Below are positions 1-46,334 of a stretch of DNA of 48,081 bases, in pieces. The notes below the pieces were generated by a model. The model was not told the origin of the DNA and did not search any database. It worked only from the letters and a program-made list of their open reading frames with translations. Source of the stretch: Phoronis australis (lineage: Eukaryota > Animalia > Phoronida); NCBI GenBank assembly GCA_002633005.1, contig NMRA01000037.1, positions 543,425 through 591,505 of the forward strand. Direction: 5' to 3'. How positions within the stretch are numbered: the first letter of the stretch is position 1; the number at the start of each line of letters is the position of its first letter. The position numbers were made by a program, and so were the translations under genes.

Positions 1-281
1 GAGTTATAATTAACACATACCATGAATCACTATGTGGAGACAATTAAGTCAACATAATTTGAAATTTGTCCTGATTCGCTCGAGCTTCCTTCACCGCTCA
101 GTCTTGCGCATGATATCAATTGAAATTCTGTGGCAGTTCCAAGGCTAATTCAACCCCAGCCAGCTAGCTGTACAAAGATGAAGATTAAAGTTTAACTAGG
201 AACTGTTGTGTTACCATTGTGACCATGTTCAACTTGTTAGTGGTCTGTTATCAAAGAACTGATATTACATTTTCAGGGACC

Positions 282-478
282 ATGTCTCGATACGGTGGTT
301 CCAAAGTCTATGTGGGCAATTTGTCTGGAGACGCATCAGAACATGAGTTAGACAGGATGTTTAGCAAGTACGGTAATGTGGAAAGCGTGTGGGTGGCGAG
401 AAACCCGTCTGGGTTCGCTTTCATCCAGTTTGACGATCCGTATGACGCGGAGGAAGCAGTGAGAAAACTTGACGGAGA
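282..478 (+). CDS. SRSF7: SRSF7-like coding exon 1 (RRM)
   Basis: tttcag|ggaccATG; [14 protein letters not shown]...RKLDG; donor GA|gtaagt at 479. Confidence 0.95.
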
Positions 479-3400
479 GTAAGTACTGGATAGCCTGCTG
501 TGTGTAATTGTCCCTCACCGACCATTAAGGAGACGCGGTATTTACATTTTACGTTGGTTCATCACATAATGTTAAGATATTTTTCATAATTTGTGTTTTA
601 TACTGAATTTGTCTGAAAGAAAATTTGTCTGCCCAAATTTTGTACAAGTTGATTTGGTGACCTTGATGTCGTTTTAGAGGTTATAGCCACAAAATGATAT
701 TGAATTTGGGAAAATGTTATTCGCATGATGTAGATGCCCTAGTTTTCTGTTTTCAAAAACAGAAATCATAGCAAATGTAAAATACTGTTTTTCCCCGTTT
801 GTAAATTCTTAAAATCTGACCATTTCAGAAATATCTATGAATTGCATTAAAATCTTTCCTGCTCAATTATGCCACTGCTCCGTTTTACTGATAACTTGCT
901 GCAGTCCGTGTTTATTGTTTTTTTAAAACTGGAAAGAGAACAGTGCCACCTTCAGAAAGAATGAGGAAATACTTGAACAAGTCCGCTGGAAAATGATCGT
1001 TGATGGATTTATGTGCAGTATATATTGGATTTGATTTATTATCTTCTTAATTTTTGGTAATTAAAAACAAAAGATTAGAATTATGGTTACTGTATCCACT
1101 ACTGAAATGTATGAATTCTGTTCCTAACCTCAGATTCCGTGAATGAAGTAGGATTCAGTGGAATCAGTTCATTTTCTGTTATCGTCGAAAACCAGTGTCT
1201 TTACCGATATCTCAAGAAGGGAGCATTAGGTTTTGTTGGTATTTCCAGCATTCTCAAGACTAAACATTAATTGTATTTAGGACATTATCGGCGTCTTTTT
1301 ATTTAATTGAATATTTACAAAACTGAGTTTCAACTCTGCAAAGCTATATTTGTTTCTGAAAGTAGAAAGCCTGTAGAATTTGAACTTTGAACTTTGAACT
1401 TTTACCAATCTTATCAGTGAGTCACAGTAGTTAAAAGGGAAGGAACATTGATAACAAATTAACTAACTGTATCAGTAACATTAGGTGTACGTGAATGTTC
1501 CGCAGTTTTCTAAATTATTTCATTTTTGTGTTATGCAATTTTTGAGATTTTTTATGAAAACCACAAAAGTCCTGTTTTTGATAGCCGTTCATGCAAAACT
1601 GGAATGTTTTAAAACGAGGACCTAACATTGTTTTGGAGAAGTGCATAAAGTATCTGAAAGTTCTCTGTGAAGCTGTTCAATCATTTCTCATAAACCATGT
1701 TGCGAAATTAGTCAAATTTTTCTTGTGTCCAACATCGCCTTGAAGCTGCATTTCGTCCTGTTCAGTTTGGTAAAAATGAAAATCAAATGGGGCATGATTA
1801 GGGGTTCATCCAGGATTTCAAAGATGAGCTGTCAAAAATGGGCTGTTAAACGTGGGCTGTCAAAAGTGGGCTGTCAGAAGTGGGCTATCAAATCGGTTTT
1901 CTCAAATTCGTAGGGTGTCCATGACCAATTACTCTTTACTGTGTTGTGACCCGTACTCAGTTTGCTGTTAGTTGTGTTGTGATACTGTGGATTTGTGGTT
2001 CTATAATAAAGTTTATTGTATCTTACATCATATCTTAAACTAACATTTTTATTCTGGACAGGCTATTGCTCCAAGAGCTACTGTTAGCACTGTGAAGTTA
2101 GGAGAGATGCTGATTCTTTTTATATGTGGACGCATTATGCCGTCATCTCCGTCCGTCCCGGCGGCGTCCGCTGCTCTATCTCCAAAACCCTTTGACATAC
2201 GTTCATGAAATTTGGCACATATGTTCCATTCATGAATGGGACGGCATGTGCGAACTTTCGGGCGGATCCGACTACCGGTGTGCCCCCTAGTGGCAATTTT
2301 AGTTTTTTACGCTTTGTATCTTCAAAAGTCCTGAACGGATTTTCATGAAATTTGGTATGCAGGCACCTAGTAGTGAGATGACGCTATCCGGCCGTTTTCG
2401 GATGGATTCGACATAGTTTGCGCCACCTAGTGGCCATTTTTAGTGTTTTCGAGTCTGTTTTTGTGCTTCCACCCCTGTATCAACCAAACCGCTCAAAGGA
2501 TGATTGTGAAAATTGGCATGTATGTGCTTACTATGTAGAGGACGGTTGACGATGATTTTCCGACGATTTCGACTACTGTGGCGCCTCCTAGTGGCAGTTT
2601 TGTTTTTTTTTTACGCCTATGGCTGTATCTCCTAAACCGTTCGCAGGAACTTTACGAAATTGTGTAAGTATATTTATATGATGTTAACAACGGAAGATGA
2701 CGACTTTTGGACGGATCCGACTACCGGTGTGCCCCCTAGTGGCAATTTTAATTTTTTTACGCTTACCTTTGTATCTTCAAAAGTCCTGAACGGATTTTCA
2801 TGAAATTTGGTATGTAGGCACCTATTAGTGAGATGACGCTATCCTACTGTTTTCAGATGGATTTGACGTAGTTTGCGCCACCTAGTGGCCATTTTTACTG
2901 TTTTCGAGTCTGTATTTTTGCGTCCACCCCTCTATCAACCAAACCGCTCAAAGGATGATTGTGAAAATTGGCGTGTATGTGCTTACTATAAGGAAGACAG
3001 CTGACAATGATTTTCAGACGATTTGGACTACTGTGGCGCCTCCTAGTGGCAGTTTTGTTTTTTTGCGCCCATGGCTGTATCTCCCAAACCGTTTGCAGGA
3101 TCTTTACTAAATTTAGCAAGTGTATTTATGTGATGTTGACAACGGACGATGACGACTTTAGGATGATTCTGATTACCGGTATGCCTCTAGTGGCAATTTT
3201 AGTATTTGCCTCTAGTGGCAATTTTAGTATTTTACATTGACCTCTGTATTTTCATAGGTCTTCAGGTGTATACTTTGTGTTACTTCGTGACTGTGAAGGA
3301 AAAGTTCCAAGTAGAAATTTGTTTCTGGCATTCTAATGCTGTGCTAATCTCGTATGTTGGTAAATTTGTTTTTAATTCTATGTTTCTGTGGTGCTTTAAG

Positions 3401-6400
3401 CAACTGGTGTATAGGATGTGCTTGTATTATGAAGATTACTCACATTTTGCCCCTAGCCTATTGAGGAGACAATGACCATGCCTTTCCATTTTGCAAAGTA
3501 TGCCCTCTACTGGCCACTTTATGGTACCAATAAACAACCCTAGAAGGATACCGTATGCGGTGCAATTGTGGGCGCATTTCAACGCTCCGCGTTGCTCTTG
3601 TTTATGTTTTCGAGTATCTCCTAAACCGTTCGCAGGATCTTTACGAAATTTAATAAGTGTATTTATATGATGTTAACAACAGACGATGACGACTTTTGGA
3701 CGGATCCGCCTACCAGTGTGCTCCCTAGTGGCAATTTTATTTTTTTCTTCACAAGTCCTTAACGGATTTTCATGAAATTTGGTATGTAGGCACCTATTAG
3801 TGCGATGACGCTATCCTCCCGTTTTCGTATGGATTCGACCTAGTTTGCGACACCCAGTGGCCATTTTTACTGTTTTTTGGCGTCCACCCCACTATCAACC
3901 AAACATTTTGCCCCTAGCCTATTGAGGAGACAATGACCATGCCTTTCCATTTTGCAAAGTACAACATACTACATATATGCCCTCTACTGGCCACTTTATG
4001 GTACCAATAAACAACCCTAGAAGGATACCGTATACGGTGCAATTGTGGGTGCATTTCAACGCTCTGCGTTGCTCTTGTTTTCTTTGGGGCCCAAATGCTT
4101 AACGGTGTGTCCTACCGTATATAGGATTTCTCTAGATGAAGCTCCGTGCTTGTGAAATCAGTATGATTCCTTACCGTGATTCTATTTCCGTTACCACTGA
4201 GGTAATCAGTCACTAAGCTCATTGGAGGTATTTACATGTAGCCTGTGGCCTGAGTTGATAACGGATATCAAATTAGTTTTTTGTAACGGTAGGCTGGTTT
4301 ATAGCTGTTTAAAGTGCACAGCAATGATGAACCTTCAATATATGGTTTATGTTTTGTGAACAGAGAGATGTTGAGATTCAGTATTTATTGAGTTTTTCAG
4401 CTTTTTTCATTTTCCTGGCATAATAGTGATGACACTCAACTGTCTTAACGATTGACTTATTTTGTTACTTTGCCTTATCCATGGTTTTCAATTCGAGGTT
4501 GCTGTGATTTACATCGTTTTGAACCTTGAATCCTTGTCAAACTTAAACCTACGTTTTTTTGTTGTAGATACTGCTGTGGTGATCGTATTCGGGTTGAGAT
4601 CTCCACCATGAAAGGGCGGTCGAGTCGTGGGCGTGGTGTGCCATCTCGCAGGAGAGCCTTTTCCCCGTCCGACAAATGTTTTAATTGCGGACGCAGTGGT
4701 CACTACGCCTATGACTGCAAGAATCGGGGCTCGCGAAGAAGGTATGGTTGATTACTATGCGATTGCGACAGTAATACCATATGATTTAACATTTTAAATA
4801 GTGCTCGACATAGCTGAAAATGACCTCTCGAAGTTACGAGTGTCTGTCCAATTTGGGCTCGTAAAACTGGCAACCAAAAAGAAACTTTTAATGTCCACGC
4901 GGCGCTCATACGACTAATGCGAGTGAGTTCAATTTTCTACTCTTATTTCACTTTTTCCACTAGTATCTTCGTGCGTTTACTTGTCGAGCCCTGTTAAATA
5001 TAAGTCCTTTAGGCGCATTCATTTCATTGACTATAACACACTGTGGTATGAGTTCAACCTCCTGCAAGTGGCAATTTTCATTTTCACTTTTACTTTAATA
5101 AACAGGTCTTACGTACTTACTAAAAATCAGTTTTCTTTGAAATTCTAACGTTAGTAGGGGGTGAATCTTTAAAACCATTATTTACTCATCTTATTGTACC
5201 TGATTACAGCGTCTTTCTGCTAGAGATCAGCCCCCTGAACCGTCATCTAGAAATGTCATGTGATCAGCCAACTCACTATCTGAGCATCTAAGAAAAGTTG
5301 ATCGTCCTCCCGCGAGCTCAGATCATGAGAGTCGACTCGAGTTTCAGCCTTTGTCACTCCCATTTGACCGTCTAACGAAAAGAGTGGCCGTCCAAATCGG
5401 AGGCAACAATTCCTAGTGCATTAGACCTAACACCTGAGCACGTCGACTGCACAGTCAGAATGTCTATACCGTTATTGGGCCTAGACAACTCCAGAAAATC
5501 CTTTTGGTACGCTTGTCTCGGCTTCACCTCTGAGACATTGTGTCCCACCTTTGACATCAACCGTCACCACTAAGACAACTTATAAACATCCGTTGATTTC
5601 GTCTCTACCATCACTGACTTGCAACGAGTTGACAACAATGTTTGTAAGTTATACTGGCGTTGTGTTATTGCCATCTGGAACTCTCAGTGTTTTCCGTTCC
5701 TGAATTCAAGGAATGCGTGTTGTATTCAGGAGATGATGCCGGGTTGAGGTTTGGGTTATTTTCAGGGCCATAACCAAAATAATGGTACACGCTGAAAGTA
5801 TTCAGACAAAATGACCCGAAATTTCTTTTGTCACGATGGCGTGGCGGAAGCCAAATTCATTGTCAGAAAAGCTTTCCGTCAAAATCGAAATTGAAAAGAG
5901 AGTTAACAGGAAAGTTAGACAGGTGGCCATTCTGTAATTAGAATTTTGACATTTTAATAGTCATTAACTGTCTATTTTGCTGTAATCATTATCAACGGTA
6001 ATGACAAGGAAATGGTATTTTGTCCGATTACTTTTATCCTCTCATGTATGCTTTTGGAAAGCAAGGTACAATGAAAGTGGAATGTATCGAAATTTATTTC
6101 ATTTTTCTAAATGCTCTTAAATAAATGGACTCCATCTGTTGGCTCGGTGGCGCCCAAGGTGTTTATTTTATGTTAATATTGAGCACAGCTGTCCTTGGCA
6201 CTCTTTAAATTTGCCATGTCATATCCGCCAAAATAATATTGTAATGCCCCAACTGTCCAACTGTTCTCTTGGTAGTAAGCTGGTAAGCTTCAGATGGATT
6301 TTCCTTTGTGCATGCACTGCTTGTTAATGACCGTGGCATGCCTAGACGGTCAGCGAAACTGTTGGTAGCACCCAGCGTTGTTTCATTTTCTCTATCGATG

Positions 6401-8908
6401 TTGTGTGAGATACCGACATTTAAAATAACTGGGGTCATTATATAAGATTCAAGTTTATCCATAATGTTGTCATGTGTTGCATTGCAGTTTGGTAAAATTT
6501 GGATGTTTTGGCAAGCGCATAAGGTGTTTTTTTGCGATACCTTTTTCATTGAGAGTGACCACCAATTATTTTAAAAGTTGGTTAAGTAATTTGCAGTCAC
6601 TGAAAGCTCCCAAGAATTTGCACTGTCATGTGGCCAGTCTCACTCTACCATTATATTTGAGTAAAACAGGATGTTTTTCTGTCACGATCCACTTCAAAGC
6701 ACATCCTGTTTATTGGTTTCCAGTGTGTTCGATATTATGCCATTTGATTTATAGGTCGCGGTCACGGTCTCCCCGCCGTAGGAGGAGTTCAAGTCGTAGG
6801 AGAAGTTACAGTCGCAGTCCTCGCAGGTGAGAATAGATGAGATGAGGTATTTTTGAAAAGAGCTAGATACCATCCCCTAAGGAAAGCATGCCCCAGATCA
6901 TTTGCCTCTCCACCCTCTTGCGTAGCAGAACCCTCGCATATATATACATACTCTTGTACATACCAGCTGCCGATGTCTACAATCGTATGACCTTTCAGAC
7001 AGACCTAGACTTGATGGTCTACATTATTTCACAATTCCGTCACAACTACATGGGTTATTGTAGAAGTCGAATTTGCTTTGGAGAAATTATTCCATGACAA
7101 TGGACTTCCCATCAATCTATGTTAAAATCAACAGCGGGTGCAATGTTTCAGGGGTGTTGTGGCCCTTACTTGTTTCTTTGGTTGAATCACAGTGCCTTCA
7201 TGCAGAAAATTTAACATAACACTGGGTGTATAATCCACGTAAGGCAAAATATCAATTTCTTTTAGTTTGATCAATCATTGTGCATTTTAAGCCCAGAAAT
7301 CTGTTGATGATTCAAAAATGGTAATGATATTCAAGAGATTTGACGGTCGTGTAGAGTTACAGTTCTTAACAACACAGTGCATCACATTTTGCTAGAATTG
7401 ATGTCCTTTAACCGTTGGTGGTAACACTTTGTATCACCGTCAGATGAGTTTACGGGTACATCACGGGTCTGAGGCAGCCACCAAAGGGATACTTTGGGAC
7501 CAAATCTGAGCAAGTGTCACAAAAAAGCTGCAGATGCCAACAATGAGATTGGTTGTGTTGAGAGGATGGCGGGTTTCCCCAGCAAATGTTTCATCTCATG
7601 ATTTTCTTTTATTCGTGTCTAGGTCAGGCAGATCAAAGTCTCGCTCACATTCGAGGTCTAGAAGGTAAGTTCTGATTTTCTGTGTCTTGGCAGGGCTTGG
7701 AATTTTCCGCGGAAACGCGGATTTCCGCTTTTTTCAAATGTTCTGTCCGCGTATTTCATTATATTTCCGCGTAAAAAAAATCGGATTTGATATAAAATTT
7801 CCGCGGCAAATTCCTTTCTTACCGCGGCGTTGCAAACGACGTTCACCTCGAAAAGTGGAAGTTGCTCTCTATGTTTCGGAGGAACGTAAATTGTCAACAT
7901 TGCCGGGGCATCTGGGATAGCGTGGTGGGATTTTCAATGGCGTCTCGTGTTATTGTAAACCGCGGCGACAAATACTACGGCTCTGCAGCCAAAATGTGTG
8001 GGTTGGGAGTTTACGGACGAGCTAAAAGGACGCAGACGCATGCTACTGATGGTGGTAACGTTTTTTTTTTATTTTATTCCCCCCGATTTTTGTCGGGGAA
8101 AGGTTCGCATCGACGATTTCAAGCTGGATAGCGCGCATCGTTTGGGCCGTAAAAGTTTAACGCGTTTTTTGTCATTGGTCATTCCAAGCCCTGCTTGGGC
8201 AGGTAACCCTGACAACAGGCATGACTTTGCACAGTGTTGTTGGAGTGATGGTAAAAACTGGGAAGAGAATTAAAGCTCTTGTGTGTGTATTGTGTTAATT
8301 GTAAAAAAGGTTCTTTTTGGGATACATTGTGTTTTCCTAAATTTTAGATTTCAATGGGGTTAATTTGAAATAGGAGATATGTAGAAAGTGGCAAATTTAT
8401 AGAAGTGTTACACGAAAGTTAAGAAGGGATGTAGTGTCATTGGTAGCCAGCATTCTTGCCTTTGAACTTAGTAACAAAATGAATAGTTCAGGCATTTAAG
8501 AACGATAAAAAAGATCAATAGTCACAAACCTTACATTTTTGTGAACCATGATATTCCATGTTAGCACAACTTTGGAGACTGTCCCAAAGTGCATTCTGTT
8601 CACTGTATACTTGTATGAGGCTGTGTATTGATTGTTCCAGGCCGCATGCTCGTAGTGGTTCCCGCGACAGGCGTCACTCCAAATCACCTGCTCGCAACCA
8701 CTCCAAGAGTCAGTCACGCGACAAAAGTCGGTCGCGCTCCAAGAGTCGGTCACGCTCCAAGAGTCGCTCGCGCTCCAAGAATCGGTCGCACTCCAAAGGT
8801 CGCTCCGGCTCCAGGAGTCGCTCTCGCTCAAAGTCAAAGGCTCGAAGTGCCAGTCCCGCTGAAGAGAGAAATAATGAAGACCAGGACAATATTGGTGATG
8901 ACAAGTAG
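282..8908 (+). CDS. SRSF7: Serine/arginine-rich splicing factor 7-like (9G8/x16 type), join(282..478,4568..4741,6755..6826,7623..7664,8641..8908), 250 aa
   Basis: RRM (KVYVGNL...[17 protein letters not shown]...AVRKLDG...RIRVEIST), zinc knuckle [14 protein letters not shown] and RS domain. All four introns are GT-AG phase 2; spliced length 753 nt. The zinc knuckle favours SRSF7 over SRSF3. An acceptor at 275-276 implies a non-coding first exon upstream. Confidence 0.92.
1825..1892. repeat. 14-bp minisatellite (TGGGCTGTCAAAAG, about 5 imperfect copies)
   Basis: tgagctgtcaaaaa-tgggctgttaaacg-tgggctgtcaaaag-tgggctgtcagaag-tgggctatcaaa. Confidence 0.85.
2117..4081 (+). mobile_element. Non-autonomous Helentron/HINE (DINE-1/pearl-like) element with internal tandem array and duplicated 3' end
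   Basis: T-run start, GTGGACGCATT (2126) recurring near the ends as GTGGGCGCATT/GTGGGTGCATT, a GTCC microsatellite near 2150, ~140-160 bp subunits forming a ~450 bp higher-order repeat, and a 3' hairpin CAACGC-n3-GCGTTG followed by CTCTTGTTT at ~3603 and again at ~4080. The repeat is certain; the family assignment is by architecture only. Confidence 0.7.
4568..4741 (+). CDS. SRSF7: SRSF7-like coding exon 2 (RRM end + CCHC zinc knuckle)
   Basis: ttgttgtag|A; (E)[57 protein letters not shown]; donor AG|gtatgg. Confidence 0.93.
5210..5643 (+). other. Candidate stop-containing (poison) cassette exon of the SRSF7-like gene
   Basis: Acceptor cctgattacag|C at 5208-5209, donor TTT|gtaagt at 5644, in-frame TAA at 5289-5291; rich in GATC/GAC/CATC words; same intron position as vertebrate SRSF3/SRSF7 poison exons. 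Confidence 0.6.
6755..6826 (+). CDS. SRSF7: SRSF7-like coding exon 3 (RS domain)
   Basis: tttatag|G; [25 protein letters not shown]; donor AG|gtgaga. Confidence 0.9.
7623..7664 (+). CDS. SRSF7: SRSF7-like coding exon 4 (42-nt RS exon)
   Basis: gtgtctag|G; [14 protein letters not shown]; donor AG|gtaagt; symmetric phase 2-2. Confidence 0.88.
7691..8193. mobile_element. MITE with 13-bp TIRs and 5-bp TSD (hAT-like ends)
   Basis: CAGGGCTTGGAAT ... ATTCCAAGCCCTG perfect TIRs; CTTGG on both flanks (7686-7690, 8194-8198); CpG-rich interior with repeated CCGCG words. Confidence 0.85.
8641..8908 (+). CDS. SRSF7: SRSF7-like last coding exon (SRSRSK repeats + acidic tail)
   Basis: ttgttccag|G; [16 protein letters not shown]...[12 protein letters not shown]...[18 protein letters not shown]. 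Confidence 0.9.
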
Positions 8909-9604
8909 CTTAGGGTGAACCTGTTCTGGGTACCCACTGTTGGAACTGTTGTATGTTTGGCATACGGTTGAACGCAGTGGGAGATTAGTTTGCAGACAAT
9001 GGGAGCCTTTGAAGTAGCATTGTGGTGACAGATCACGTGGAACAGATACTAGTGACCTCTGGAGGATGAGGAGGCAATTACGCATTTATTAAATTTTGTC
9101 AGGTCTAATCGCATACTCTGTAAAATGGCTTTTTCATGAAGCCAATCATGTTTCCCTGCGCCCCTCCCCCCTGCTTTCTGAAAGTTTCCATCGTGATCAG
9201 TTCCCTTGTGGTTAAGTTTTGCATATGATTGAAAAGATACTTTTGCTTGTGTCCTTGCTGCAGGCTGCTGCATTGCTAGAGTGAAGCAGACTAGTGGCAA
9301 TGTTAATAATTGTCTGAAAGAATCGTATTGTATAAGGTCGTTCTTTTCTCTTGGCTATGTCTGGAAGTGCTGAGTAGAAGCTAAGTTGCTGCATTTCACA
9401 GGCTAGGTATAAGTTGCATTGACAAGTTTGGAAACTTTGTATTTTTAGCAAAATATGTTCCTGTTTCTGATAATGCAGCATAGTTTTGTCATTATAAGGT
9501 GTGAAAAGTAACAGTTGGTATTATTTTGGTAAACCTCCCTCTTGAATTTTGTCCTTTTGGGAGTTTGACGGTTTCAGCACACACTGTTGCCAGTTTATTT
9601 CCGC

Positions 9605-9610
9605 AATAAA
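9605..9610 (+). terminator. Probable polyadenylation signal of the SRSF7-like gene
   Basis: AATAAA about 700 nt after the stop, followed by a GT/T-rich stretch. Confidence 0.5.
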
Positions 9611-10806
9611 TAAGTTGTTTCTGTGTGTAAACATTCTTGGTAGAATTTCAATCTTCCAGATCTGCTAAGTTTCTCTGTTCATGTATGTAAACAAATGGAT
9701 ACTAATTCTACAGAGCACAGTTAGTGAAATGACTGTGAGGTGAACAGGTTTTTTATTGGTCAGATGTGCAAGTAATTTTTTCTTATAAAGAACCGTTTTT
9801 TTCTGTGTAAAGCAATTATTACATGCTTTTGTCATCACTGGTTCTGTTAGGATGCTGTTGGCACAGGTCTGTAATCTCTTGTTTTCTATGTGTGACAGAT
9901 TGCATAAGGGTAATACCTAGCTGTACTATCTCCCTGTGTAATCAAAGACTTTATAATCCTTTTGATACGTCTGTGTTTCCAGTTAAGATTATCTTTGCTT
10001 TGTTTAACTGAATTCCTTTGTCTAACATGTTTAATGTGTGAAATATACTTGCATTTTTATAGGAAATACTGTCAGAGTTTTCTTGGTCCCTCCTGTTGAA
10101 TTTTGTCTGTTAGGAAAAGGAACAGTTATTATTTGACACCCTACCAAAGCGGCGCCGAGAGCGTTGAAAGTTTTCAAGAGCGGCATCTTTGAAGCCCATT
10201 GTTTTCGTTCACCATTTGGGGTGACGCCAATTTTTTTTTTAAGAAGACTCATCAGTATTCTTTGTTAGGATTCAGGTTGACCAAATTAGCACTGGTGAAA
10301 ATCAAAAGTATTATAAATTTATGATGACGTAACTCACCAGTCGTAGTTTCACGTAAGAGATGACTTCAGAAAACTCGAAAAAGTACAGCTAAACCCGCGT
10401 AATAGGTATGGATAAACTGGATAAAAGGATTAAACATGTATCGGGCGAAATGCGACTTATTTAGAGAGCTGAATGCATCAACTAAAGGAAGTGGGCCGCG
10501 TAACTTAGTCCGAGTAAGACAGAAACCGACTTCTTCGTGTCCGATTTATGCGGGCTTTCCCACTGACAGAAACGTGATTTAACACATTCAATATTCAACC
10601 GAATAATTGCCACGTTTATCATAAAGGTGAGAGGACGCGTGTTCGTACTGGCTTATCGTCTCCGTTTGTCTTGTTATCGATGTATTATTAATCCATTGTG
10701 TTATATCTGTCATAAGAATTCTGTCATGTGATTGGAGATACGAGGTGCTTGATAATTGCTGCTTATAAATGTGAAGGAATCTGTGACGCGCCTCATCTCG
10801 TGGAAA

Positions 10807-26674
<15,868 letters not shown>

Positions 26675-27715: not shown

Positions 27716-28007
27716 AAGTCATAATAAGAAATATTAAAGATGCCTTCTACATTTCAAATGGTTACGATCACACATCTTCTGTGTTATTGTTATTGACCTG
27801 TCTTTGTTTCGATGATTGGTCAGTGTTGTGTGGGGGACGGAGAAAGACGTGAAAAGAATACTCCTCGTGCCTTACTGGCGGATCTTAGAATCCGTAAGGG
27901 GGGGGGAGAGGCAGATACGATTTGCGAAGGAAAAATGTCCGCATAGCACACCTTTTTAGTCGTGCTCGCTGGGGGAAGTGGTAGACTCAATTCCCCCCCC
28001 CCCCCCC

Positions 28008-28217
28008 NNNNNNNNNNNNNNNNNNNNNNNNNNNNNNNNNNNNNNNNNNNNNNNNNNNNNNNNNNNNNNNNNNNNNNNNNNNNNNNNNNNNNNNNNNNNN
28101 NNNNNNNNNNNNNNNNNNNNNNNNNNNNNNNNNNNNNNNNNNNNNNNNNNNNNNNNNNNNNNNNNNNNNNNNNNNNNNNNNNNNNNNNNNNNNNNNNNNN
28201 NNNNNNNNNNNNNNNNN
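28008..28217. other. Assembly gap (210 N) flanked by poly-C
   Basis: Run of N. Confidence 0.99.
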
Positions 28218-29660
28218 CCCCCCCCCCCTCCGATTACTCGCTTAACTGTGATTTGACGTCTCTGCGTTTGAGAAGTATTATCATGACAAATGTGTGCCCT
28301 GGATAGTTTGTGAATCAATCAAAAATCGATTTTGTACAAAATCCTATATACCACGCGTTAAATCGAACGGGCATGATCCTTCGATTGTCACACGCACTGC
28401 ATAGGGTAAGTCGATTTATTTATCCGTCGTTGTTGGTATTCTTCAAGTGGTATTAGAGTGCTCTATGTTTAGCGGATTCATTGACAAAAATTGTAGTGAC
28501 AGTAGTCCGAAAATGTTGGTTTCCATAGTTCACGGGGCGCGTTATCATGTTACCATCTGCTTGGAGTGGTAGATTGCCAACATCCGCTACTGGTGCAGAA
28601 GGCGGGACTTCCTCCCCCAGCTTGTATCGCTTGCGGTTTTACATTTCTATTATGGGTCAGAGTAGTTACAAAGTGGTCTTTTTAGCTGGCATATATGGTG
28701 ACCTCAATTTTCCTGTCGATGATATCAATGAACACATTTAGTTTTGTTCGAAAATGCATCAGGGCAACTATAGGATTTCCGATGCAGATTAAAAATGGCC
28801 GACACGGTGATAAAACGTTCGCATTAGAAAGCATTGGTAGGCTTAGTGTTGGTGGAAAGTTGAGTCAACTTCAACTTGAGACCAATCAAGCGAAATCTGC
28901 AAAACGTTGATCACCTCTTACAACAGTACAGATAATAAGACAGACAATTATTTCTTACACAAAATATTAGAACACAAAATATCCGAACAAATCTCTAGGA
29001 TAGTGTATATTGTCTCTAAACTCTAAAATAAAAATATTCGTATACAGAAAATAACTATGAAAATGGACCAATTATACGATGAACTTGAACTAAACGCGTC
29101 CATGTCAAACTGTAAACCGACACCTCGTAATTTCCCCTTCAGCTGCCACGGCCTAATTCAGAGAAAACCTGTAAAAGTAAAATACCGTGCAGAATGGACA
29201 GAGAGAAGGACGATTTTATGTCAACAACATGCAAAGTGTTGTAACTAAGTACTTAATGATAAAGTTTCTGGTTAGACTGCAAAGTATTTATATCAATCTG
29301 GCAAGTGGCTGAAAATTTCTTTAAGCTGCTAAAACATGTTCTGGGGTTAAAATTCACCTTTCTTCCTAAGTGCACGTGCCCTAACACTCACTGAAATCAA
29401 CGTGAAACTGAAATTGGTTGCCAACGCGTGGATTTATCCTAACGACCAGATTGTGAAACTAAACCTGAGCATTAACTGAAGAAATGATGACGTGCCACTT
29501 CATCTCGTCATGAATAAATCATTTCAAATACGAGTAAGAAAGAAGACGAAGCCGACGTTATTACAAGTGGCCTAAACGATAACATTATACTTGAACAGGA
29601 TGTGCGGTCTTATTGCACTTAAACCGTAAGGGTAGCGAATGCATAAAAAAACATATTACG

Positions 29661-40424: not shown

Positions 40425-46334
<5,910 letters not shown>

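What the first reader, a model, noticed from the sequence alone, without database searches (positions are those of the whole stretch)
5210..5643. Hidden poison cassette exon in an invertebrate SRSF7-like gene (candidate AS-NMD autoregulation)
Seen: the intron after the zinc-knuckle exon contains a 434-nt block bounded by an acceptor (tgattacag, 5208-5209; alternative ctgctag at 5222-5223) and a GTAAGT donor (5644). Either acceptor gives an early in-frame stop (TAA 5289-5291 or TGA 5261-5263) with several exon junctions downstream. The block is less T-rich than the flanking intron and dense in GATC/GAC/CATC/CAAC words. Established: vertebrate SRSF3 and SRSF7 carry an ultraconserved stop-containing exon of similar size between the RNA-binding part and the RS domain, bind GAY/CNYC-type motifs, and promote its inclusion to trigger NMD. 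Inference: this is the equivalent autoregulatory switch, invisible to ORF-based annotation; if translated it would give an RRM+zinc-knuckle protein lacking the RS domain. From memory, GTCATGTGATCAGC (5255-5268) resembles a stretch of the mammalian SRSF3 poison exon, which needs verification.
Basis: partly seen in the sequence, partly recalled or inferred. Interest (0 to 1): 0.8.

Follow-up and report, generated by a model that had tools for sequence, protein, structure and literature searches.

The report
Ancient poison exon in cnidarian SRSF7
RNA reads show that a stop-carrying 434-base exon is spliced into some messages of a splicing-factor gene (SRSF7-like) in what is likely a coral-group animal, at the same intron as the vertebrate 'poison exon', which would likely let the protein turn down its own output and would likely date this switch to before the cnidarian-bilaterian split.

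Summary
Confirmed as a real, alternatively spliced exon. In three stranded RNA runs, reads join 4741^5210 (7 reads, plus a contig from a second study), 5643^6755 (24) and the skip 4741^6755 (21). Inclusion per run is about 0.64, 0.88 and 0.20. The second acceptor (5224) was not seen. The gene is SRSF7-like (RRM, zinc knuckle, RS). A neighbouring gene points to a hexacorallian cnidarian. Inclusion stops translation at 150 aa, 352-466 nt before three junctions. A bird-like SRSF7 locus has a 449-nt poison exon in the same intron and phase. The two exons do not align, yet share more 8-mers (16) than any of 1829 control windows. Similar C-rich, splice-site-bounded blocks of 353-522 nt lie in that intron in 13 other unnamed animal loci. 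In one species pair only that block aligns. NMD and autoregulation are inferred, not tested, and the high steady-state inclusion argues against efficient decay alone. The mechanism is known (vertebrate SRSF3/7, worm rsp-6, pan-animal SRSF5). The depth of this event was not found in nine literature searches.

The parts
277..478 (+). RRM-coding exon (ATG at 282; 5' boundary 277 predicted from the acceptor)
   Evidence: Pfam RRM_1 3e-18; best PDB hits SRSF7 and SRSF3 RRMs; loose read ends at 4568 carry this exon's 3' end in 18/12/31 reads
4568..4741 (+). Zinc-knuckle exon; both flanking introns in phase 2 at the vertebrate SRSF7 positions
   Evidence: Pfam zf-CCHC; phases and positions compared with L002, L003, L006, L031
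4742..5209 (+). Upstream intron (468 nt), partly retained or slowly spliced; retention gives a stop after 126 aa
   Evidence: sense read depth about 1-10; translation
5127..5154 (+). 28-nt element with a branch-point-like word at 5145; 24 of 28 columns match L031:190-216, upstream of the tetrapod poison exon (lead only)
   Evidence: no comparable match in 29 other loci
5210..5643 (+). Poison cassette exon, 434 nt, C/CNYC-rich
   Evidence: junction reads 2/2/3 plus an X4 contig (5' side) and 5/13/6 (3' side); skip 2/1/18
5289..5291 (+). Premature TAA; inclusion encodes 150 aa (RRM + zinc knuckle + 27 extra codons), 352/424/466 nt upstream of three junctions
5577..5650 (+). Predicted hairpin over the exon's donor: either of two upstream arms (5577-5589 or about 5615-5624) can pair with about 5637-5650
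   Evidence: opening cost 10.1 vs 4.4 kcal/mol, 0 of 300 shuffles as high; not seen at 15 other candidate donors
5644..6754 (+). Downstream intron (1111 nt), partly retained; holds a multi-copy repeat near 5785-6035
   Evidence: depth and both-strand reads
6755..6826 (+). First RS-domain exon
   Evidence: junction reads
7623..7664 (+). Second RS-domain exon
   Evidence: 6826^7623 in 6/16/26 reads; 7664^8641 in 7/8/20 reads
8641..9620 (+). Last exon; normal stop at 8906-8908 (250-aa protein); AATAAA at 9605; the true 3' end was not determined

Best explanation
The 434-nt block is a spliced cassette exon with an early stop in an SRSF7-like gene of a likely hexacorallian cnidarian, and it likely works as the negative-feedback switch known from vertebrate SRSF3/SRSF7: the protein would bind the exon's CNYC-rich words, promote inclusion, and send the message to nonsense-mediated decay or nuclear retention. 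Shown: inclusion, skipping, partial retention of both flanking introns, the stop far upstream of three junctions, and the same intron, phase and size as a tetrapod SRSF7 poison exon. Inferred: the weak donor (no exonic consensus, predicted to lie in a hairpin) makes skipping the default; rising SRSF7 binds the exon and opens or strengthens the donor; the included message is an NMD substrate; any escape gives an RRM + zinc-knuckle protein without an RS domain. Also inferred: the exon descends from one element in the cnidarian-bilaterian ancestor whose sequence turned over while its size, place and word content were kept.
For: Junction and skip reads in 3 of 3 raw runs, all on the coding strand; a contig from a second study carries 4741^5210. 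Inclusion differs between runs (3' junction:skip 13:1 in X2, 6:18 in X3, Fisher p 1e-4). Stop 352-466 nt upstream of junctions. Tetrapod L031 has a 449-nt exon in the same intron with CNYC 5.8 per 100 nt, the same as the window's. Shared 7/8/9-mers 33/16/7 exceed all 1829 control windows (maxima 27/12/6) and dinucleotide and trinucleotide shuffles (p 0.0005-0.02); the reciprocal profile peaks on the L031 exon. Thirteen other animal loci show 353-522-nt CNYC-rich blocks with acceptor and donor. The CNYC peak is closed by a consensus donor in 8 of 13 loci against 3.4 expected (p 0.007). Between L013 and L020 only the block aligns (74%; 85% vs 59% in flanks). Transcript L041 carries a 192-nt insert with an immediate stop at this junction relative to L040/L042/L051. 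Literature passages: SRSF3 binds and promotes the SRSF3 and SRSF7 poison exons (PMC3439968); SRSF7 binds GAY and CNYC and autoregulates (PMC9022966); worm rsp-6 has a PTC cassette exon that is an NMD substrate (PMC2265522; PMC5765348).
Against: No NMD-inhibition or binding data. Pooled inclusion is about 0.42 without known NMD inhibition, high for a rapidly degraded isoform. The exons do not align (local and global scores p 0.03-0.33) and the shared words are not colinear. With tetranucleotide-preserving shuffles of the window exon the word sharing drops to p 0.05-0.17. Eleven other invertebrate blocks do not share significantly more 7-mers with L031 (147 vs 130 +/- 14); their sharing with the window exon rests mainly on L005, L037 and L043, which were noticed through that sharing. 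GAY/GAYGAY, the zinc-knuckle-type motif, is not enriched. Blocks in other loci were bounded by eye and, except L041, have no spliced evidence. Four contig-cut invertebrate loci (L011, L012, L025, L032) show no block, and teleost L002/L003 have introns too short for one. Lower within-species variation in the exon is not significant (p 0.21 and 0.30).
Confidence: 0.72

Rival explanations
1. The exon works mainly by nuclear retention or by an NMD-resistant message: included, intron-retaining transcripts stay in the nucleus, bind SRSF7, or yield a truncated RRM + zinc-knuckle protein that competes with the full-length one, as described for mammalian SRSF7.
For: High steady-state inclusion (0.20-0.88) and read depth on both flanking introns. 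The upstream junction is rarer than the downstream one (7 vs 24, p 0.003). A review describes intron retention, nuclear bodies and split ORFs for SRSF7 (PMC9022966 passages).
Against: No AUG or near-cognate start in the RS frame inside the exon, so there is no second split ORF of the mammalian kind. Fully spliced junctions occur on both sides. Library type (poly(A) or total RNA) is unknown, so intron reads may be pre-mRNA.
Confidence: 0.17
2. It is a poison exon, but it arose independently in cnidarians and vertebrates in the same intron, because that intron separates the RNA-binding part from the RS domain; the shared words reflect binding sites of the same protein, not descent.
For: No alignment and non-colinear words; the sharing is largely explained by tetranucleotide content; SR-gene poison exons are reported to arise repeatedly (PMC4379411).
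Against: Like-sized blocks at the same place in 13 further animal loci would need many separate origins. The 28-nt upstream match to the tetrapod locus is the best of 408 windows, p about 0.001. This rival concerns history only and is compatible with the mechanism above.
Confidence: 0.25
3. The block is unregulated cryptic splicing or an exonised repeat with no function.
For: Low read counts; a premature stop is expected by chance in any 434 nt; the gene's introns hold several repeats.
Against: Inclusion is near that of skipping. The exon gets only sense-strand, near-identical reads, unlike the repeats at 5785-6035 and 7691-8193. No repeat family among those shown touches it (20 of 29 direct families and all 13 inverted pairs shown). 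It ranks first of 1829 windows for words shared with the vertebrate exon.
Confidence: 0.04

Closest known systems
Vertebrate SRSF7 (9G8) intron-3 poison cassette exon
   Same: RRM + zinc knuckle + RS gene; same intron and phase; 434 vs 449 nt; early stop; CNYC 5.8 per 100 nt in both; nine exact shared words of 8-10 nt
   Different: Not alignable; words not in the same order; GAY less enriched (3.5 vs 4.5 per 100 nt); donor has a perfect intronic but no exonic consensus, the reverse of L031; no re-initiation AUG in the RS frame (also none in L031); the mammalian split-ORF feature is known to me only from a review
Vertebrate SRSF3 (SRp20) poison exon
   Same: Same family (RRM E 8e-20 to SRSF3); stop-carrying cassette promoted by the protein itself (PMC3439968); CNYC motif
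C. elegans rsp-6 PTC cassette exon
   Same: Invertebrate SR gene with an NMD-substrate isoform encoding the RRM without the RS domain
   Different: NMD is shown there, not here. That rsp-6 is the SRp20/SRSF3-type gene is recalled; its intron position was not compared
SRSF5 unproductive splicing conserved from anemone and fungi to human (Lareau and Brenner 2015, PMC4379411)
   Same: Poison exon or retained intron at one homologous intron across animals, including anemone, often with flanking intron retention
   Different: Different SR subfamily and intron; that paper's main text does not mention SRSF7 (0 occurrences)

Membership tests
SRSF3/SRSF7 subfamily, SRSF7 type | Single N-terminal RRM closest to SRSF3/7 | tested here: met
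   PDB best hits SRSF7 4.7e-20 and SRSF3 7.9e-20, against SRSF1 1.3e-9
SRSF3/SRSF7 subfamily, SRSF7 type | CCHC zinc knuckle between RRM and RS domain | tested here: met
   Pfam zf-CCHC 3.6e-7; RS domain in the spliced 250-aa product
SRSF3/SRSF7 subfamily, SRSF7 type | One-to-one orthology with vertebrate SRSF7 | tested here: inconclusive
   63-66 of 109 residues identical to five vertebrate proteins; tree of 21 rows unresolved, window on a long branch; both introns flanking the knuckle exon match in position and phase
SR-gene poison cassette exon (AS-NMD) | Alternatively included and skipped internal exon | tested here: met
   7, 24 and 21 junction reads in X1-X3
SR-gene poison cassette exon (AS-NMD) | In-frame stop more than 50-55 nt upstream of a downstream junction | tested here: met
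   352, 424 and 466 nt
SR-gene poison cassette exon (AS-NMD) | Inclusion isoform degraded by NMD | not testable with these tools
   No NMD-inhibited data; pooled inclusion 0.42 at steady state
SR-gene poison cassette exon (AS-NMD) | Inclusion promoted by the gene's own product | not testable with these tools
   Only motif content: CNYC-rich, GAY not enriched
SR-gene poison cassette exon (AS-NMD) | Sequence conserved above flanking intron among relatives | tested here: inconclusive
   No close relative's locus was retrieved; within-species contrast not significant; met for the equivalent block in L013/L020
Split-ORF (bicistronic) SRSF7 isoform | Re-initiation codon inside the exon in frame with the RS domain | tested here: not met
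   Five AUGs, none in the RS frame; no near-cognate start in that frame
Known structured ncRNA (Rfam) | Match to an Rfam model | tested here: not met
   0 matches at E up to 1 in 4400-7000

The most novel reading that the evidence does not exclude
The SRSF7 poison exon is a single element older than the cnidarian-bilaterian split, kept in most animal lineages as a 350-520-nt exon in one intron. Its sequence has been rewritten beyond alignment while a shuffled vocabulary of short words, and perhaps a 28-nt upstream branch-point element, survives from corals to birds. Comparing these exons would expose the minimal grammar behind vertebrate ultraconservation. In this species a hairpin over the donor would be the switch that SRSF7 opens.
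Probability: 0.45. Interest if true: 0.7.

Novelty: new member of a known kind. Interest (0 to 1): 0.5.

Why it matters
Why SR-gene poison exons are ultraconserved over hundreds of bases is still open: PMC4379411 says their sequence requirements were not dissected. A cnidarian exon with the same place, size and word content but no alignable sequence, plus a dozen invertebrate counterparts, is a natural mutagenesis series and can be swapped into vertebrate minigenes. It would add SRSF7 to SRSF5 as an unproductive splicing event of pan-animal age. It also marks an isoform that ORF-based annotation misses and that makes up a large, variable share of this gene's RNA in the runs examined.

Tried and rejected
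No genome is held for the window, so paralogues and UPF genes were not checked. The look-up of sequencing runs listed no indexed RNA holder; the raw runs added by species label did hold the gene. Homologue searches with single exons were weak (2 hits; none). tblastn of 17 post-knuckle protein tails, vertebrate and invertebrate, against the intron gave only chance-level hits. blastn of the exon against 63 loci gave no hit under E 0.7; among 25 intron stretches the window aligned to none. Alignment to the tetrapod exon was not convincing. The alternative acceptor at 5224 had no listed joint. A split-ORF reading was rejected. Rfam found nothing. The donor hairpin is not general: 0 of 15 other candidate donors reached p under 0.1, and 1 of 16 constitutive donors reached p 0.03. 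The within-species variation test was not significant. Exact look-ups gave no names for 10 invertebrate proteins (4 in the collection, none named), so those loci have no taxon. The protein tree was unresolved. The Atlas search was uninformative on taxon. Konigs et al. 2020 is not held. Earlier findings of this scan: none.

Full report
Gene and organism. The window holds an SR-protein gene on the + strand. The RRM exon runs to 478, the zinc-knuckle exon is 4568-4741, and the RS exons are 6755-6826, 7623-7664 and 8641 onward, giving a 250-aa protein. The RRM's best solved relatives are SRSF7 and SRSF3 (E 5e-20 and 8e-20; SRSF1 1e-9), and the knuckle makes it SRSF7-type. A tree of 21 rows did not resolve orthology. 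One exon of a neighbouring transgelin/myophilin gene is 85-90% identical to proteins of three stony corals. Over its two main exons identity is 79-88% to those corals, 70-83% to two of three sea anemones (the third aligned 52% and 78%), 65-74% to octocorals and 57-68% to other animals. The organism is therefore likely a hexacorallian cnidarian. No whole genome is held.

The observation. The block is C-rich and T-poor. CNYC words are far above the intron background (25 vs 7.7) but only marginally above dinucleotide shuffles (p 0.086). GAY is not enriched and GAYGAY is absent.

The exon is spliced. Four runs were laid, three of raw stranded RNA reads (18-19% of each read) and one of contigs from another study. 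In X1/X2/X3 the joints are 4741^5210 in 2/2/3 reads, 5643^6755 in 5/13/6 and the skip 4741^6755 in 2/1/18. An X4 contig also carries 4741^5210. All reads over 4500-5714 have the orientation of the coding exons. Inclusion works out at 0.64, 0.88 and 0.20, pooled 0.42; X2 and X3 differ (p 1e-4). Counts are small. No joint to 5224 was listed. Both flanking introns carry reads (depth up to about 11 away from the exon edges and the repeat), and the upstream junction is rarer than the downstream one (7 vs 24, p 0.003). Inclusion ends the frame at TAA 5289-5291, giving 150 aa, with the stop 352, 424 and 466 nt before three junctions. No AUG in the exon is in the RS frame and the exon has no poly(A) hexamer.

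Comparison with a vertebrate exon. A scan of metagenome contigs returned 63 loci. L031 is a tetrapod SRSF7 locus (90% to a bird protein over 69 residues). Its knuckle exon ends at 107, a 449-nt exon that I bounded from its splice sites lies at 303-751, and the RS exon follows at 989. A database SRSF7-like protein carries a tail matching that exon's start (P0128, 29 of 32). Intron position and phase match the window on both sides of the knuckle exon. The two exons do not align (p 0.03-0.33). They share 33 7-mers, 16 8-mers and 7 9-mers, more than any of 1829 same-size windows on both strands of the 48 kb (maxima 27, 12, 6); the reverse complement gives 12, 1 and 0, and the reciprocal profile peaks on the L031 exon. 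Dinucleotide and trinucleotide shuffles give p 0.0005-0.02. Tetranucleotide shuffles give 0.05-0.17 on the window side and 0.01-0.04 on the vertebrate side, so much of the signal is shared short-word content. The nine exact matches are not colinear. Separately, 5127-5154 matches L031:190-216 at 24 of 28 columns, 55 and 86 nt before the respective acceptors, and holds a branch-point-like word. It was reached by 2 and 0 of 3000 shuffles and is the best of 408 windows. It is AT-rich, scored E 0.068 in the 63-locus search, and was not found in 29 other loci, so it is a lead.

Other animals. After setting aside near-duplicates, spliced transcripts, unrelated knuckle proteins and loci with too little downstream DNA, I examined 19 loci besides the window. 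In 13 unnamed non-vertebrate-like loci (L005, L010, L013, L016, L017, L020, L030, L033, L037, L043, L047, L056, L058) the same intron holds a 353-522-nt block with an acceptor, a donor, an early stop and CNYC at 3.4-8.4 per 100 nt, against 0.4-2.9 in the flanks of the 12 where flanks were measured. I bounded these by eye, helped by word and CNYC profiles, and a stop is expected by chance. L008 has the block without a consensus donor. L011, L012, L025 and L032, cut by contig ends, show none; nor does teleost L006. Teleost L002 and L003 have complete introns of 126 and 169 nt. In a rule-based test the CNYC peak is closed by a consensus donor in 8 of 13 loci against 3.4 expected (p 0.007). With the six rows I left out put back, it is 11 of 19 against about 6.0 (summed by hand). 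Between L013 and L020 only the block aligns (85% vs 59% in flanks). L047/L050 give 92% in the block, 95% upstream and 77% downstream. Transcript L041 has a 192-nt insert with an immediate stop at this junction relative to three spliced transcripts; its CNYC density is 8.9 per 100 nt. A 5-mer model trained on 12 other blocks ranks the window exon above all 1829 control windows, but that test is partly circular. Eleven invertebrate blocks do not share significantly more 7-mers with L031 than shuffles do.

Structure. Folding of 5110-5660 gave z -2.25 and a stem over the donor. Freeing the donor costs 10.1 kcal/mol against 4.4 in shuffles (0 of 300 as high), but none of 15 other candidate donors shows this. 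It was noticed after the fact and is at most lineage-specific. Variation within the species is lower in the exon than in the last exon, but not significantly (1 of 434 vs 12 of 1160 sites, p 0.21, the latter list truncated).

Mechanism. Shown: regulated-looking inclusion of a stop-carrying exon between the RNA-binding and RS parts. Inferred from the family: the protein binds CNYC-type words in the exon, promotes inclusion and lowers its own output through NMD, with intron retention as a second outlet. The support is published work on SRSF3 and SRSF7 (PMC3439968 passages; PMC9022966 passages; PMC7764535 passages) and on worm rsp-6 (PMC2265522 and PMC5765348 passages). The strongest point against is the high steady-state inclusion, which leaves nuclear retention or an NMD-resistant isoform open.

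What is known. Poison exons occur in all vertebrate SR genes. One SRSF5 event is conserved to anemone and fungi (PMC4379411: abstract, one of four parts of the main section in full, and passages). Low-abundance isoforms are noted for fly Rbp1 genes (PMC7726792 passages), and a Smndc1 poison exon is conserved across kingdoms (PMC11357089 passages). Nine searches of the held library, judged from listings and from passages of the papers above plus PMC3173450, PMC12632421 and PMC3556307, showed no account of this SRSF7 exon in cnidarians or across invertebrates. Lareau et al. 2007 was not read and Konigs et al. 2020 is not held; no supplements were opened. Any of these may bear on novelty.

Verdict. 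A real poison cassette exon and a new member of a known kind. Its interest lies in the phylogenetic depth and in word-level likeness without alignment. Interest 0.5.

Noticed in passing
window 5210-5643: In X3 the depth inside the exon (30-48) exceeds what its two boundaries account for, and rises past the stop codon. GC bias, 3' bias or decay fragments could explain it; no pile of read ends was listed.
   Followed up: partly
window 2176-4080: Intron 2 holds an array of related 105-300-nt repeat units sharing a short core word.
   Followed up: no
window 7691-8193 and 5785-6035: Multi-copy repeats that draw reads from both strands; the first reaches depth of several hundred and has sharp ends, like a short mobile element.
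   Followed up: no
window 5097 and 6120: AATAAA in each intron flanking the poison exon; possible intronic polyadenylation, with no read-end evidence.
   Followed up: partly
L008:2334-2938: Two different zinc-knuckle exons in tandem (knuckles at 2454-2495 and 2867-2908), each with its own phase-2 donor, ahead of one RS exon at 5144: possibly mutually exclusive exons.
   Followed up: no
L037:3478-3964 and L047:792-1208: These candidate exons have an AUG near the 3' end in frame with the RS domain, as a split-ORF would need; the window and L031 do not.
   Followed up: partly
L002:666-791 and L003:461-629: Teleost srsf7a-like loci have a short intron here with no room for the poison exon, suggesting loss in one paralogue.
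   Followed up: partly
window 10756-24121: Exons of a gene with a trefoil domain that looks like a lysosomal alpha-glucosidase (the family name is my recalled reading).
   Followed up: no
window 40425-46331: Transgelin/myophilin-like gene, used to place the organism.
   Followed up: yes
window about 28000-28230: Assembly gap between poly-C runs; the window has 212 N.
   Followed up: no
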